Source of the DNA: Thalia democratica
Lineage: Eukaryota
Assembly: GCA_965202585.1 (NCBI GenBank)
Contig: OZ241833.1
Coordinates: 23,746,001-23,810,000 of the forward strand
Direction of reading: 5' to 3'
Length of the DNA: 64,000 nucleotides
The position numbers were made by a program. This document shows, piece by piece, positions 18,001 to 33,000 of the stretch (the first letter of the stretch is position 1; each line of letters begins with the position of its first letter).

Positions 18001-21000
18001 ATCTACCAAATAAGAAAGGAAAAATTAAGACGTTTAGAAAAATTTCAGTTATAACTAATAAATATAAACAATACTAAAAATATTATTGTTAAATAAATAT
18101 TCACAACTGTTTAAGTTAGAAACTAGGATATTCATAAAAATTTTTTTTTAATAATTTTAAAAAGAAAATACCACTTAAAAGGATGTATTTAATATTCAAT
18201 TATTTTCTTGAACATTTTTTTATTTGGAAAAATAACAACTGACTTTAGTTTATAAAGATTAACTCAAGAAAAAAAAAAAAGAAAAAAAAAAATAAAAATG
18301 CGAAGGTTAAGAAAAAATGCCTTTAATTTTAGTAGTTAAATATAATTTTTGCTTTAATTTTTGCAAAAAAAAAACTATTTTAAAAGTTTAAAATTAAGTT
18401 TAGTATAACGAATTTATTCCAATAATTGTTTTAGTCTAAGAACTTTTTGAATTATCAAAAAAATTACGGTTTAAAAAAGATAAACGTGTTTTTTAAAGTA
18501 ATTTTCTTAAACCGACATGAGTAAAACATCTTTATGTAAAGTTTGACAGTTATTTCTTAAAATAGAAAGCTACATAAAATATAAAATTCAAGGACTTCTT
18601 CTAAAAAAAACTTCTACGATTGACATTTGTGACTACACATAAACACGCAAGTTAGTATCGGCTAATTGTAGATCGTTACCATTGATTTTTTGATACTTAT
18701 TCAAAATCATCTCTTCATTGATTGTTCGTTATGATCAAAATAATAGAAGTTCAACTTAAAAGAAAAATTGGATGGAACTACAATCTACTCAGTAGTTCAA
18801 CGTCTTTTATTAATTTGTTGTATTTGTTAAGTTACAAAAAGCTTTATATGTATAAATTATTAATTTGAAGTTTTTTTCTTTAAGCTAAAGTTAGCATTTA
18901 CTTTGGTAATGTTGAATATATAATATTTCGATACGTCCCAAATGACATGTAAAAAGTTTTTGTAGTTATAAGCTTTATTTCCTATGAAGGGAATTAGTTG
19001 AAACATTAGTTTTAAAAACCTTTTTAAGATATGCAAAATTGAGATTTTATACTATTAGGTAATTTTATAAATGAATAAAAGTTTTATTTTTAATATGGGT
19101 TTTAAAAAGTACAAATATCTACATACACATAATCTAGAGCTATTATTCAAATATTAATTTTTAACAAAACAAAAAACTTTAGATAGTTTTATTTATCAAA
19201 CTTTCTTTATTTATCTACAAAGTTTGTTTTATTATGTTAAAACATGTTTCTTTATTAAATCTAAAAAATCTGACTAAAATATATTCATGTAAAAATTTTA
19301 TAATACGTGACTAATTTATGTAAGAACTTATTTAAAATAACCAACAGATTTGATTTTAACTAAAAATTTAATAAAAAGTAGTTTACTGCAACGTAGTACA
19401 TGTAAGTTATGTCTACAAAATATTTAAAACAAAAAGGATAGTTAAAAAAATGATACAAAAAGTAAACTGTTTTAAAAAAACACAGTTTACTTGCTTGTTA
19501 TACATCTTTTTTTATTTGATTGTATCTGATTATTCGTTCTCACCTCATGTCATTTGATGCCAACAAATTAATGAATAATTAATTTTTTATGATCTTATTA
19601 CTAGCGAAATCACAACATAAGGTTTTATGACTAACATATGAGGAAACAAAGAACTTTTACAGTTGGATTTTGAAAATTTTGTTAGCTTTATGTGTGATTA
19701 AGTTTTAAGCTACACTATCTATAAAAACAAAGAAAAACAAACTATTTAATTACAAACTTTCAAGTTTCGCCTGAGTTTATTAATTTAGGTTATAAATATT
19801 CGCTTTATACAACATTGCTTTTTGTTTATAGTTTTTGGTTTAAGAACGGAATATTGTTTTTTTGATTAGGTCTTACTTTAAAGACAAAGTATTAAGAAAA
19901 GTAAAATTACTTAAACTAGTTGAAATTTTGTTATAGTTATTAAAAATACTCTTTTAACATTTAACTAAACAAAATAGTAATTTGGTAATTTAGTATTACG
20001 GAGTTACAAAAAGTTTAGAGTAGTTTAAAAAGCTAGTGATTTCTAAGATTCTTGTTTTGAATTTTTACAGAAAAACAAAGCAAAAAGCAACCCAATTTCA
20101 ATTTTTACAGTGTTTAGATTTGCATTTTCACCCTTAAAATTGGTTAAAAAATCAATGATAAGTCTGTTAACTTCGAGTGATGTTTGTGAGTTAAATTTTC
20201 GAAAAAACAATGGCGTGCGAGAGAAATTCAATTTAGTGTTTCGGGGTTTTTTTCTTCGCATACGAAATTGTACGTTTTTTGTAATACAGTTTTTGACAGT
20301 CTTAAGCTTTTCAAAGTAATTAAATTTGACTTAATCTTAAATGCAAGGTAGTTTTAGAGAGGATTTTTCTATTGCATTTAGCTTTTTTTAGATAAGTATA
20401 TAGTTATGTTTTAATGACATAAATCAAAGTCTATAAAGTTATTTAAACTACTCTATATTATTCAGATTTTTTAAATGTGTACCAAATAAACTATTTATGA
20501 AAAAAAAAAGTTTTGCTTCACATAGGCTAGTTTCCAGTATCTTTATAACTTACTCATAAAAAATTCAAAGTTAATTTTGAAAGATTTAGAAGTTCAATGA
20601 CATGAAAGCAGCAATCTTCGCAGTATTTTTTTGTTATTTTGTCGAAGTAAAATCAATTTGCATTCTAGCTGGTAAGTCTAATTTTAATTAATTTCTTTAG
20701 ATTATAAGTGCTTGCATGAGTATATAAATTTTGGTTTTTGAACTTATTTAATTTTTATGAGAGTAAAAAATGTTTTTAGAATATTAACCAAATCAAGTAT
20801 TTAACCATTAACGTAGTGAAATCTGAAGTTTAGTATTTCTTATTTAACGTAAACATTGCAATACTATTATACTTTGTAGATCTTATTTCAACTTAAAGTT
20901 TATAGTTTTTTGAAAACAAAATAATGCTCTGAATATTAAAATCTTTACAAAAGATAAAGTTAAGTTTAATAAAAGTTAAATCAAAAAGCAAAACTTTAGC

Positions 21001-30000: not shown

Positions 30001-33000
30001 TTCATTTTCAAAAATTATAAATCGTTATAATTTTTTTAAACAATACAACAATTTTGTATTTGTTTTAACAAACTTATTTTCTACAAGATAATAACTTATT
30101 TGTTAAAAAAACTTATATTATGATATTTTTTGTTAATTATTAGGGTAAATCTCATTAAATTAAAAAATATCTTTTTTTTTGAGGAAATCAAAGAAAAAAA
30201 AACCTTTTTTTTATGTTTGCAAAGTTGTTTGCTTTCTATTATTACAATTTTAGACTTGGACAATTATTCAAGAAAAAATATATTTTAAAATAGAAGGAAA
30301 TTTTTTGTTGTTAATATCAGTATTGTTAAAATTATTATTGTTTTTTTCTGATTAAAAGCACAAAATTTACAATACTTATATTCATGTTTTCATTTTTAAA
30401 GGTTAAGTTCAGTTATTGTAAAAATCTCTTCTTTAAAATTCTTAAAAATTTTTTACAATAGTTTATTTAACTATTCAAGTGTAAAACTATTTTAACTGCT
30501 CAAGTTAAATTATTAGATAAAATGAAAATTACGTTTTTAGCACAAAATACTTATAAAAAAATTTCGTAAAAATATATCTGCGTATTACATTTTACTTTCT
30601 TTGAAAAGGTAATTCAAGTATTTATACGTTTGTTATTAGTGTTGTTTATCTCCTTTTAAAAGTTAGTTCAAAGTTATATATATTTTTTAGTTCTTATGTT
30701 ACTAAAAAAAAGATTAATAGTACATTATAAAACACAAAATTTAGTTAATTTTCGTTTAGTTTTATTTTCTTTTATTTTTCATTACCTTAAACTGATTGTT
30801 TTACTACTAAAGATTTAAATATTTAAATAATAAAAAAATATGTGTAAAAGCTCGTGAGAAAATTTATAAGCATGTGGTGTACGACTCAAAAACCGAAAGG
30901 TTTCTTTGTGCACCAGGTCTTTAGACCAAACTTTTTGAGCGCTTTTTTTAACCGTTCAATAAACAATACTAAATCGAGTTACGTAGCCAAAGAAAACATT
31001 AATTACAATACTTTAGTAACAGAAAAAAACTGATCATTTTCTTAATATTAAAAAAACTATTATAAGATGAGAATACTGAACTCAATTTTTTAAACTTACA
31101 AAAGTTTAATATAAAGTTTTAGAGGTAATTATTAATAGTTAAAAAACTCTTTTTATTCTAGTTGTTTAAATTTGTCACGTCAAAAAAAGATTTATTTTGC
31201 TGTTTAATTATTGTGTTTATAAAACAATGTTTCTTTTTTGATCTTTACGAAAGATTAGCTAACATTTATTAAAACATTTATAAGACCAGTAATCTAAATA
31301 AGTTGAGAAATAACATCGAGAGTTTTGCAAATCTGAGGTCCAAATTTAAAGCTCATTTTTTCACAGCTGTTGGAACCCACACTGCTTTATAATAACTGAC
31401 AAGAAAACGAACTACGACGATTTGTTGAGGGGAATATCAGATAACTGCTCCGTCAACACGGCATACGAGTTTTTTCCTCAATTCATATCGAAACCAAGCA
31501 CCACCACTACTACTGCTATGATGACTTTACTCAAAACTAAAAAGACAAAACTGGCGTCACTTGCTGCAGAAACAGAAAACTTGTCCACGTCAATAAGCTT
31601 CTCTTTTAAAACACTGTTTTTTATTTTGATGATACAAACTTTTATTTTATAGTAAAGACTAAAAAAATTTTTTTAAACATTAAAAGCCTATGGATCTAAG
31701 TTTAAGTTACATTGTTTGTCTGAAAGATGTTAAGCAAAACTTTTAATTTAACTGTTACATATATAACAAATATACTGATGTTAGTTAGTTTTAAACATCT
31801 TGTTTATCTTATATGTTTAAGGCAATATTTTCTAGATGATATAGTTTTAAGAGGATCGTTTTAGTTTCAGAATGAAATTTTTTCTAAATAAAAAAATCAA
31901 ACTGCAACATCTTAAATTTTATCAAATTATTTTTTTCTCTTGTTTTAGAACTTCAATTTAAATTTTTTATCTTACAGTACATATTTTCAATCAAACGTTT
32001 TCTTTTTGTTTTTTTTTTTACTAAAAAACGGATTTACCATAAGTGGCAACAACATTTTTTATATAGCTTAGCAATAAGTGAATGAAAAAAAAAAATGATT
32101 AAAGTGTTTATTAATTAAATTAGATTTATTTCAAAACAGGCTTTTTGAAATATAGACTTGCCTACGCCCAAACTAAACTTTATGAAACAATTTTAGTTAA
32201 TTCGTATCAATTACTTCAATTTTAATTATACCTCAATTAAAAGAAATATTAAAGTAAAGCATGCTAAACTATTTTTAAAATTCAAAATTGTAAAATCTGC
32301 TAATCAATATAATTTACTTAAAGATAAACAAGGTGGTGAGCTAAATAAAGCTAATGTGTCAAGTTACATTCGCTTTTGTTGGGAAAAGTTTTTATAAATA
32401 TGTTTTAACAGCTCTTTAATTGTTAACAGATCCCACATTCTTATTTATCACTTTATATACTAGTGGTTGACGATAAGGTTAGATATTGCGCGGCCGAATA
32501 AACCGCTTTACCACATGTAACCGACTTATTTTAAAGTTTTTTTTGCTACCAGTAATAAATATTTTTTTCTAAATTAGACATTTTTGTTAAAAAACTAAAA
32601 AGTTTTTATAGTTGTACTGATTAACATTTATTTATTAAAAAAACCTTGATATAATATGTTGTTTACTTTAATTGTTAATTTTTAGTATATATCTTAACTT
32701 ATAAGATGAATTCTAGTAAAAAAACCATTAAGAAGTTCTGAAAACATAAATATTTTTGAAAGCAATTTTAACTTTTTTTATTGTAAGATATTAAAAACAT
32801 TTTAACATAAAGAAAGACCTATAAACCTTTAAACCTTTAAAAAACTAAGTAAAATCTTAAAAAACTTAACCTTAAGTTAAATTATCGAACAAATAGGTTG
32901 CATTTATTCATATTTAAAAAGCAATAAACAGTTTTTGTTAGTTTATCAACAATTAAGTAAACACTGAGTTCATAACTGTTTTACTCAACAATACATTTAA

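What the first reader, a model, noticed from the sequence alone, without database searches (positions are those of the whole stretch)
20602..31652. Unannotated-looking GPI-type surface protein with two tandem neuritin/RGM-N/DUF19-like cysteine modules
Seen: 312 aa with a signal peptide. Module 1 is C-x11-C-x15-C-x9-C-x7-C-x24-C. Module 2 is C-x10-C-x17-C-x8-C-x8-C-x19-C-x4-C-x20-C. They are followed by a Thr-rich stalk, small residues (NLSTS) and a hydrophobic C-terminus with no cytoplasmic tail. Established: that tail layout is a GPI-attachment signal, and six-Cys helical bundles of similar spacing occur in neuritin/CPG15, the RGM N-terminal domain and DUF19/CPG4-type domains. Inference: this is a duplicated-module member of such a fold, a candidate cell-surface co-receptor or neurotrophic-type ligand lying next to a sensory scaffold gene. 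I do not recognise it as a named gene.
Basis: partly seen in the sequence, partly recalled or inferred. Interest (0 to 1): 0.65.

Follow-up and report, generated by a model that had tools for sequence, protein, structure and literature searches.

The report
Unclassified cysteine-rich, probably GPI-anchored surface protein gene
A five-exon gene in a very AT-rich animal genome appears to encode a small secreted, disulfide-rich protein with a lipid-anchor-type tail; it matches no known protein family, so its role is still a guess.

Summary
Five + strand exons (20602-20671, 23610-23823, 25088-25228 or -25240, 26515-26730, 31367-31652) have canonical splice sites and matching phases.

It looks like a real gene:
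- Exon GC is 0.31-0.48 against 0.20-0.24 in the introns.
- The proposed frame has the best codon score of six frames in 4 of 4 exons 2-5.
- The cysteine-rich start of exon 5 is 44/44 identical in a close relative (P0005), against 35/43 in the adjoining intron.

The signal peptide and the GPI-type tail fit by inspection.

Family membership is not shown. Exon by exon there was no Pfam match (0 of 4 pieces, E<=10), no related solved structure and no named homologue. The only support for a DUF19/CPG4-like fold is a weak language-model lead for exon 4. The AlphaFold model of exon 4 was unusable. The spliced protein was never joined, searched or folded.

Verdict: a plausible, ordinary, so far unclassifiable surface glycoprotein gene. 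The proposed co-receptor or neurotrophic role and any link to the neighbouring whirlin-like gene are speculation.

The parts
20602..20671 (+). Exon 1: start codon and signal peptide (23 codons + 1 nt, phase 1)
   Evidence: ATG at 20602 with a purine at -3, and donor tg|gtaagt. The 12-residue hydrophobic core has mean hydropathy 2.56. The -3/-1 rule allows cleavage after residue 18 or 20.
23610..23823 (+). Exon 2: about 40 charged residues, then module 1 Cys 1-3
   Evidence: Acceptor cttttactag| and donor |gtgagt; GC 0.44. Translation. Codon score +40.6, the best of 6 frames.
25088..25240 (+). Exon 3: module 1 Cys 4-6, an N-C-T sequon and a Gly/Pro/Thr loop. It ends at 25228 (308-aa model) or 25240 (312-aa model).
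   Evidence: Acceptor atatactag|. There are two in-phase donors, gtacat after 25228 and gtttgt after 25240. Translation. Codon score +18.4, the best of 6 frames. Sequon.
26515..26730 (+). Exon 4: module 2 Cys 1-5, highly charged (17 D/E and 13 K/R in 71 aa)
   Evidence: Acceptor ttttttttcttatcttag| and donor |gtaaga; GC 0.48. Translation. Codon score +59.6, the best of 6 frames. Composition.
31367..31499 (+). Exon 5, first part: module 2 Cys 6-8 (C-x4-C-x20-C) with an N-C-S sequon
   Evidence: Acceptor ttttttcacag|. Translation. It is 44/44 identical in the relative P0005, against 35/43 in the intron read-through.
31500..31574 (+). Exon 5, middle: short Thr/Lys-rich linker
   Evidence: Translation. 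This part and the tail together carry 5 substitutions and 1 indel in 50 columns against P0005.
31575..31652 (+). Exon 5, end: candidate GPI-attachment signal (small residues in ENLSTS, spacer ISFSFK, 13 hydrophobic residues, TAG stop with nothing after the hydrophobic run)
   Evidence: the hydropathy of 9-residue windows rises to 2.0-2.4 over the last 14 residues. No dedicated GPI predictor was available.
27440..27850 (.). Unexplained GC-rich island inside intron 4. It may or may not belong to this gene.
   Evidence: GC is 0.38-0.48 here. CpG observed/expected is 1.03 and it is single-copy in the window. There is no Rfam match at E<=1 and no unusual fold stability (z -0.66 and -0.90). Codon scores are positive in several frames with no dominant one. 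In-phase cassette or terminal exon options exist mechanically.

Best explanation
This is a real, previously unnamed protein-coding gene of five exons. Its product enters the secretory pathway through an N-terminal signal peptide. It folds into two cysteine-stabilised modules of 6 and 8 Cys (14 in the mature chain, so all can pair). It carries up to three N-glycan sequons.

A GPI transamidase most likely cuts it at a small residue within ENLSTS and transfers it to a GPI lipid. The two modules would then sit on the outer face of the plasma membrane on a short Thr-rich linker and act as a binding surface, as a ligand or co-receptor rather than an enzyme.

Shown: gene structure, coding signal, purifying selection on part of module 2, and the sequence layout. 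Inferred: disulfide pairing, helical fold, GPI anchoring and a binding role.
For: - Splice sites are canonical and phases are consistent.
- Exon GC is 0.31-0.48 against 0.20-0.24 in introns.
- The proposed frame has the best codon score of six frames in 4 of 4 exons 2-5, while 5000 intron windows never exceed -11.6.
- Exons 2-4 hold 11 Cys and exon 5 adds 3, which gives an even 14. That parity favours the exon 4 to 31367 join.
- The only relative found (P0005, 140 aa, unnamed, from an 840-base contig) is an open frame that reads through the intron into exon 5. It is 44/44 identical over the Cys-rich start of exon 5 and 35/43 identical over the intron part, where the window has a frame shift and a stop (Fisher one-sided p = 0.0025).
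- The signal-peptide core and -3/-1 cleavage sites are present. The C-terminus has small residues, a spacer of about 6-7 residues, then 13 hydrophobic residues and the stop, which is too short for a membrane span and leaves no cytoplasmic tail.
- The Cys spacing is repeated between the modules (p about 0.003).
- The Atlas recognition value for exon 4 is 2404, a level reached by 91 in 100 proteins of known families and 9 in 100 shuffled ones.
Against: - No transcript evidence was available.
- No homologue outside one near-identical relative, and that one covers exon 5 only.
- The exon 3 donor is ambiguous and both options are weak.
- An unexplained GC island lies in intron 4 and could hold an alternative exon.
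- The tail, including the putative GPI signal, evolves about as fast as the intron: 6 changes in 50 columns against 8 in 43, p = 0.27.
- The hydrophobic end is only 13 residues with a Gln in it, and no trained GPI or signal-peptide predictor could be run.
- If the signal peptide is cut after residue 18, an odd 15th Cys remains.
- The codon score partly tracks GC. The opposite strand of exon 4 also scores +51.2.
Confidence: 0.6

Rival explanations
1. Each module is a neuritin/RGM-N/DUF19-CPG4-type disulfide-locked helical bundle, duplicated in tandem, so the protein is a distant member of that group working as a GPI-anchored ligand or co-receptor.
For: - The Atlas feature search of exon 4 lists DUF19 (0.82) and CPG4/DUF19 (0.76) clusters behind three unnamed nematode clusters (0.90, 0.86, 0.86).
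- The Cys spacing C-x10/11-C ... C-x8/9-C-x7/8-C resembles what I recall for neuritin. That is recall, not a call.
- The low-confidence model of exon 4 puts helices at residues 19-29 and 32-37.
- The module spacing is repeated.
Against: - 0 of 4 exon pieces match any Pfam family at E<=10. Exon 4 holds 5 of the 6 core Cys, so a partial match was possible.
- No RGM chain appears among the PDB hits at E<=10 for exons 2, 4 and 5.
- Atlas scores under 0.9 are leads only, and a first hit of 0.9 arises in 4-10 of 100 shuffled sequences.
- Exon 2 gave no usable Atlas hit and a recognition value of 1246.
- The modules are not alignable to each other.
- The model has pLDDT 49 and half of it is drawn as strands.
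Confidence: 0.2
2. The gene is real but the product is not GPI-anchored. It would be plainly secreted, or the mature mRNA would end in a different last exon, for instance one in the GC island at 27440-27850, with 31367-31652 used only in some isoforms.
For: - The hydrophobic end is short, contains Gln, and evolves at about the intron rate.
- An in-phase acceptor (ttttcccaaccgcag|) at 27486 opens 38 codons with 3 Cys before a TAA, which would also keep the Cys count even.
- The island has no other explanation.
Against: - The 27487-27600 frame scores only +4.4 bits over 38 codons, and several frames of the island score alike, so there is no frame-specific coding signal.
- Exon 5's Cys-rich part is under constraint in the relative.
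- Exon 5 continues the module with regular spacing.
- The relative keeps the ENLSTS-spacer-hydrophobic layout despite its substitutions.
Confidence: 0.15
3. It is not a functional gene: chance open frames in GC-richer patches, or a decaying pseudogene.
For: There are no named homologues and no Pfam family. The codon score is confounded by GC.
Against: - Five frames join with canonical sites and matching phases.
- The proposed frame is the best of six in 4 of 4 exons.
- The Cys spacing is ordered and repeated.
- Cys parity is even.
- There are 0 changes in 44 residues against 8 in 43 in the adjoining intron.
Confidence: 0.05

Closest known systems
Neuritin / CPG15 (Pfam NRN1)
   Same: Signal peptide, a cysteine module of six Cys with similar short spacings (family pattern recalled, not taken from a call), and a GPI-type C-terminus.
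   Different: There are two modules instead of one, about 310 aa instead of about 140, and a second module with 8 Cys. No profile match at E<=10 for any exon piece.
Repulsive guidance molecules (RGM_N + RGM_C, GPI-anchored)
   Same: A GPI-type tail, and an N-terminal Cys-rich module with a C-x8-C-x7/8-C core (family pattern recalled).
   Different: No RGM_N or RGM_C match. No RGM chain among the PDB hits. There is no GDPH autocleavage motif (motif recalled) and no vWD-like part in the exon translations.
Nematode DUF19 (T20D4.11-like) and CPG4 domains
   Same: These are the closest named clusters by language-model features for exon 4, at 0.82 and 0.76. They are secreted Cys-rich domains.
   Different: The scores are below the tool's 0.9 line and there is no Pfam match. 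Those families are mostly nematode, and I have not shown them to be GPI-anchored.
Ly6/uPAR three-finger GPI proteins of insects (for example quiver/sleepless, boudin)
   Same: Small, Cys-rich, signal peptide plus GPI signal. From recall, this is the commonest kind of small GPI protein in arthropods.
   Different: No Pfam match. There is no adjacent Cys pair and none of the C-terminal CCxxxxCN-type motif (motif recalled) in the translations. The charged, helix-prone sequence does not look like a beta three-finger.
GAS1 (two GFR-alpha-like helical Cys modules on a GPI anchor)
   Same: The overall architecture, from recall: signal peptide, two Cys-rich modules, a linker and a GPI signal, at about 300-350 aa.
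   Different: No match to the GDNF-receptor family profile. The Cys spacing differs from what I recall of GFR-alpha domains.

Membership tests
Neuritin/CPG15 | Match to the family profile (Pfam NRN1) | tested here: not met
   hmmscan of the 4 exon pieces found 0 families at E<=10. Caveat: the modules were tested split at their introns, not joined.
Neuritin/CPG15 | A single six-Cys domain followed directly by a GPI signal | tested here: not met
   There are two modules of 6 and 8 Cys. The GPI-type tail is present.
RGM | RGM_N and RGM_C profile matches | tested here: not met
   No Pfam family for any exon piece. No RGM chain in the PDB sequence searches of exons 2, 4 and 5 at E<=10. Exon 3 was not sent to PDB.
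RGM | GDPH autoproteolytic site in a partial vWD domain (feature recalled) | tested here: not met
   No GDPH in the four exon translations.
DUF19 / CPG4 | Match to PF01579 or PF15481 | tested here: not met
   0 families at E<=10.
DUF19 / CPG4 | Shared fold | tested here: inconclusive
   Atlas features score 0.82 (DUF19) and 0.76 (CPG4/DUF19) for exon 4, which the tool rates as leads only. The AlphaFold2 model of exon 4 has pLDDT 49 and pTM 0.28 and is not usable, so no Foldseek search was run.
Ly6/uPAR | Profile match, and the 8-10 Cys three-finger pattern with an adjacent Cys pair near the end (pattern recalled) | tested here: not met
   No Pfam match. No CC pair in any exon translation.
GPI-anchored proteins (class, not a homology family) | Cleavable N-terminal signal peptide | tested here: met
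   Met by rule of thumb only: the hydrophobic core scores 2.56 and -3/-1 sites lie after residues 18 and 20. SignalP was not available.
GPI-anchored proteins (class, not a homology family) | C-terminal signal: small omega, omega+2 residues, a polar spacer, and a hydrophobic end with no cytoplasmic residues | tested here: inconclusive
   The layout is present: S-T-S or N-L-S, then the spacer ISFSFK, then 13 hydrophobic residues and the stop. The hydrophobic run is short and no trained predictor was available.
GPI-anchored proteins (class, not a homology family) | Release from the cell surface by PI-PLC, or a lipid anchor detected | not testable with these tools
   Needs a bench experiment.

The most novel reading that the evidence does not exclude
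The gene encodes an invertebrate, tandem-duplicated version of the neuritin/RGM-N/DUF19-type disulfide-locked helical module on a GPI anchor. That would make it a previously unrecognised branch linking the vertebrate neuritin-like surface ligands to the nematode DUF19/CPG4 domains, detectable only at the level of fold.
Probability: 0.15. Interest if true: 0.55.

Novelty: new member of a known kind. Interest (0 to 1): 0.3.

Why it matters
If real, it adds one more small GPI-anchored, cysteine-rich surface glycoprotein to an animal genome that appears unannotated in the collections I could reach. Proteins of this kind often act as co-receptors or modulators of channels and receptors, so it would be a candidate for expression and binding studies.

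It would matter more if the fold ties vertebrate neuritin/RGM-N to nematode DUF19/CPG4 domains, because that would give those poorly understood modules a common origin. On present evidence it is an ordinary orphan gene prediction. Nothing supports a functional link to the neighbouring whirlin-like gene.

Tried and rejected
- **Pfam:** exon pieces 2-5 gave nothing at E<=10.
- **PDB sequence search:** exon 4 gave 4 hits at E<=10, the best 0.068 to a zinc-finger protein, taken as noise. Exon 2 gave 2 hits, the best at 2.1. Exon 5 gave 0.
- **Word-indexed search of 5.8 billion proteins:** run with exon 4 only, at lengths 126-2000 aa and 39-125 aa. No candidate. Exons 2, 3 and 5 were not sent there.
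- **HMMER over 1.84 billion representatives:** run with exon 5 only, giving 2 hits at E<=0.001. P0005 is the close relative. P0006 (E = 3.7e-4, 5 stretches on query residues 40-84) is a repetitive Thr/Leu/Cys-rich 657-aa protein that I take to be a compositional match to the linker and tail.
- **Control search:** residues 1000-1500 of the neighbouring lipid-transfer protein at E<=1e-10 found nothing among 6938 candidates. I set the threshold strictly, so this shows only that no close relative of this genome's proteins is in that set. It also makes "no homologue" weak evidence for exon 4.
- **Cluster look-up of P0005:** one member, unnamed, from an 840-base contig.
- **Module against module BLASTP:** no alignment for exon 2 against exon 4, and E = 3.6 for exon 3 against exon 4.
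- **AlphaFold2 of exon 4 without an alignment:** pLDDT 49.1 and pTM 0.28. It was therefore not sent to Foldseek. The second fold job and the complex job were not used.
- **tblastn of the four pieces against the window:** only self hits, with the next best at E = 0.017-0.95, so there is no paralogue in the window.
- **Three-frame Pfam scan of 8-20.6 kb:** Not repeated.
- **GC island in intron 4:** no Rfam match, no unusual fold stability, no repeat copy, no dominant coding frame. Rfam at gathering scores and tRNA scans of the whole window found nothing.
- **Poly(A) signal:** the first AATAAA lies 235 nt after the stop, but the motif occurs 2.3 times per kb, so it says nothing.
- **Literature searches:** I saw only the listings and abstract starts. 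Nothing relevant came up and I took nothing from them.
- **Not reached:** The genome-contig collection (bacteria and archaea) was not used because it is irrelevant to an animal gene.

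
Full report
**What the window is**

The window is 64 kb with no N. GC is 0.20-0.31 almost everywhere except a 38-52 kb block at 0.36-0.46. I do not take it for human. The composition is far too AT-rich. The gene content is a PDZ scaffold gene on the + strand and, on the - strand, a giant lipid-transfer protein with vitellogenin-N, open-beta-sheet and VWD domains and a single 10.1 kb exon. That looks like an invertebrate, probably an arthropod, but the taxon is my inference and was not established.

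**The observation**

- The ATG is at 20602 and is followed by 23 codons ending at tg|gtaagt.
- Three internal exons and a last exon follow, all with ag/gt boundaries and mutually consistent phases:

| Exon | Coordinates | Note |
|---|---|---|
| 1 | 20602-20671 | start codon, signal peptide |
| 2 | 23610-23823 | |
| 3 | 25088-25228 or 25088-25240 | two in-phase donors |
| 4 | 26515-26730 | |
| 5 | 31367-31652 | TAG stop at 31650-31652 |

- The coding lengths sum to 924 or 936 nt, so 308 or 312 aa. The gtacat donor after 25228 is also in phase, and I cannot choose between them.
- The exon translations reproduce both cysteine patterns exactly, with junction-spanning spacings counted from the phases.
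- The tail is a short Thr-rich stretch, then ENLSTS, and the protein ends in 13 hydrophobic residues directly before the stop.

**Is it a gene?**

- Exons have GC 0.31-0.48 and the four introns 0.20-0.24.
- I trained a codon log-odds score on the neighbouring lipid-transfer-protein frames against intron trinucleotides. It gives +40.6, +18.4, +59.6 and +24.0 bits for exons 2-5 in the proposed frame, the best of six frames in 4 of 4. In 5000 intron windows of 70 codons the mean is -79.8 and the maximum -11.6.
- That score partly follows GC. The antisense frame of exon 4 reaches +51.2. Exon 1 is too short to judge.
- Exons 2-4 hold 11 Cys and exon 5 adds 3, giving an even 14.
- The HMMER search of exon 5 against 1.84 billion representatives returned one real relative, P0005. 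It is an unnamed 140-aa open frame from an 840-base contig.
- P0005 reads through the intron into exon 5, which gives a built-in neutral control. The first 44 residues of exon 5 (Cys 6-8 of module 2) are 44/44 identical. The intron-derived part is 35/43 identical, and the window has a frame shift and a stop there. The linker and tail have 5 substitutions and one indel in 50 columns.
- The Cys-rich part is more conserved than the intron (Fisher one-sided p = 0.0025). The tail is not (p = 0.27).
- So part of module 2 is under purifying selection, and the linker and anchor signal evolve freely, as such segments often do.

**Anatomy**

- Signal peptide: the hydrophobic core has mean hydropathy 2.56, with -3/-1 sites after residue 18 or 20. 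Cutting after 20 or later removes both signal-region Cys.
- Module 1 spans exons 2 and 3, with its intron after Cys 3.
- Module 2 spans exons 4 and 5, with its intron between Cys 5 and Cys 6.
- The first five spacings of the two modules differ by only 10 residues in total. Random placement of 14 Cys reaches this in 0.27% of 200000 trials. At residue level the modules do not align.
- There are three N-x-S/T sequons: NCT in exon 3, and NCS and NLS in exon 5.
- The C-terminus has the usual GPI-signal layout, but the hydrophobic run is short and includes a Gln.

**Family searches**

The spliced protein was never joined, searched or folded, so whole-module sensitivity was not reached.

- Pfam: 0 of 4 pieces matched any family at E<=10.
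- PDB sequences: only noise for exons 2 and 4, and nothing for exon 5.
- Word-indexed search with exon 4, longer and near lengths: nothing.
- A control search with the neighbouring lipid-transfer protein (residues 1000-1500, E<=1e-10) also found nothing. This genome's proteins are evidently not in that collection, and "no homologue" is weak evidence.
- ESM Atlas features for exon 4:
  - The recognition value was 2404.
  - The first hits were unnamed nematode clusters (0.90, 0.86, 0.86).
  - DUF19 scored 0.82, an arthropod DUF1397 cluster 0.76 and a CPG4/DUF19 cluster 0.76.
  - By the tool's own calibration these are leads.
- ESM Atlas features for exon 2: no usable hit.
- AlphaFold2 of exon 4 alone: pLDDT 49, so no fold search was justified.

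**Surroundings**

- Upstream on the + strand are PDZ exons at 4232-4435 and 4710-4895. Their best solved relatives are KIAA1526 (whirlin, by my recall of that name) at 1.3e-9, then PDZD7 and harmonin.
- A further frame that reads to me like a PDZ domain lies at 10732-10875. It was not sent to Pfam or PDB. Exon 1 lies about 9.7 kb beyond it.
- Downstream, the lipid-transfer-protein gene converges from the - strand.
- There is no paralogue of the finding in the window.
- Adjacency to a whirlin-like gene is confirmed, but it is no evidence of shared function.
- Inside intron 4 there is a 0.4 kb GC-rich island (27440-27850) that I could not explain.

**Most likely mechanism**

1. Co-translational entry into the ER.
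2. Signal-peptide cleavage.
3. Formation of seven disulfides within two compact modules.
4. N-glycosylation.
5. Replacement of the C-terminal 19-23 residues by a GPI anchor at a small residue in ENLSTS.
6. Display on the cell surface as a binding module.

The gene structure, coding signal, constraint and layout are shown. The disulfides, fold, anchoring and binding role are inferred. I give this reading 0.6. The rivals are:

| Rival | Confidence |
|---|---|
| A non-GPI or alternatively terminated product | 0.15 |
| No gene | 0.05 |

**Comparison and verdict**

It works like the small GPI-anchored cysteine-rich surface proteins: neuritin, RGM N-domain, Ly6 proteins and GAS1 in overall layout. 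It failed every membership test I could run for those families, with the caveat that the modules were tested in pieces. It is best filed as a new, unclassified member of that general kind. Interest is modest.

Noticed in passing
window 27440-27850: A GC-rich island (0.38-0.48 against about 0.22 around it) inside intron 4 of the model. CpG observed/expected is 1.03 and it contains a TGACGTCA palindrome near 27803. It is single-copy, has no Rfam match, no stable fold and no dominant coding frame. It could be an alternative exon, a promoter or an enhancer.
   Followed up: partly
window 4232-4435, 4710-4895, 10732-10875 (+ strand): PDZ-domain exons of a whirlin/PDZD7/harmonin-type scaffold gene (Pfam PDZ; best PDB hit KIAA1526 at 1.3e-9). 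A further frame that reads like a PDZ domain lies near 10.8 kb but was not tested. The 233-aa Ser/Asn-rich frame at 7421-8122 has no Pfam match.
   Followed up: partly
window 34970-53129 (- strand): A very large lipid-transfer-protein gene. A 703-aa exon carries the Vitellogenin_N end and the open beta-sheet, and VWD exons lie at 37.0-37.8 kb. A single 10.1 kb exon of 3368 codons has no Pfam match at all and no relative at E<=1e-10 for its residues 1000-1500.
   Followed up: partly
window 61481-62010 and 62721-63070: Two more GC-rich islands (0.47 and 0.38) with open frames on both strands, for example 61589-61870 on the - strand at 93 aa. That frame had no Pfam match. They are probably exons of another gene.
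   Followed up: partly
window 14701-15180: A GC-richer patch between the PDZ gene and the finding. It has low, non-frame-specific codon scores on both strands, and its nature is unknown.
   Followed up: no
window 20597-20605: A minimal upstream open frame (ATG ACA TGA) overlaps the proposed start codon out of frame.
   Followed up: no
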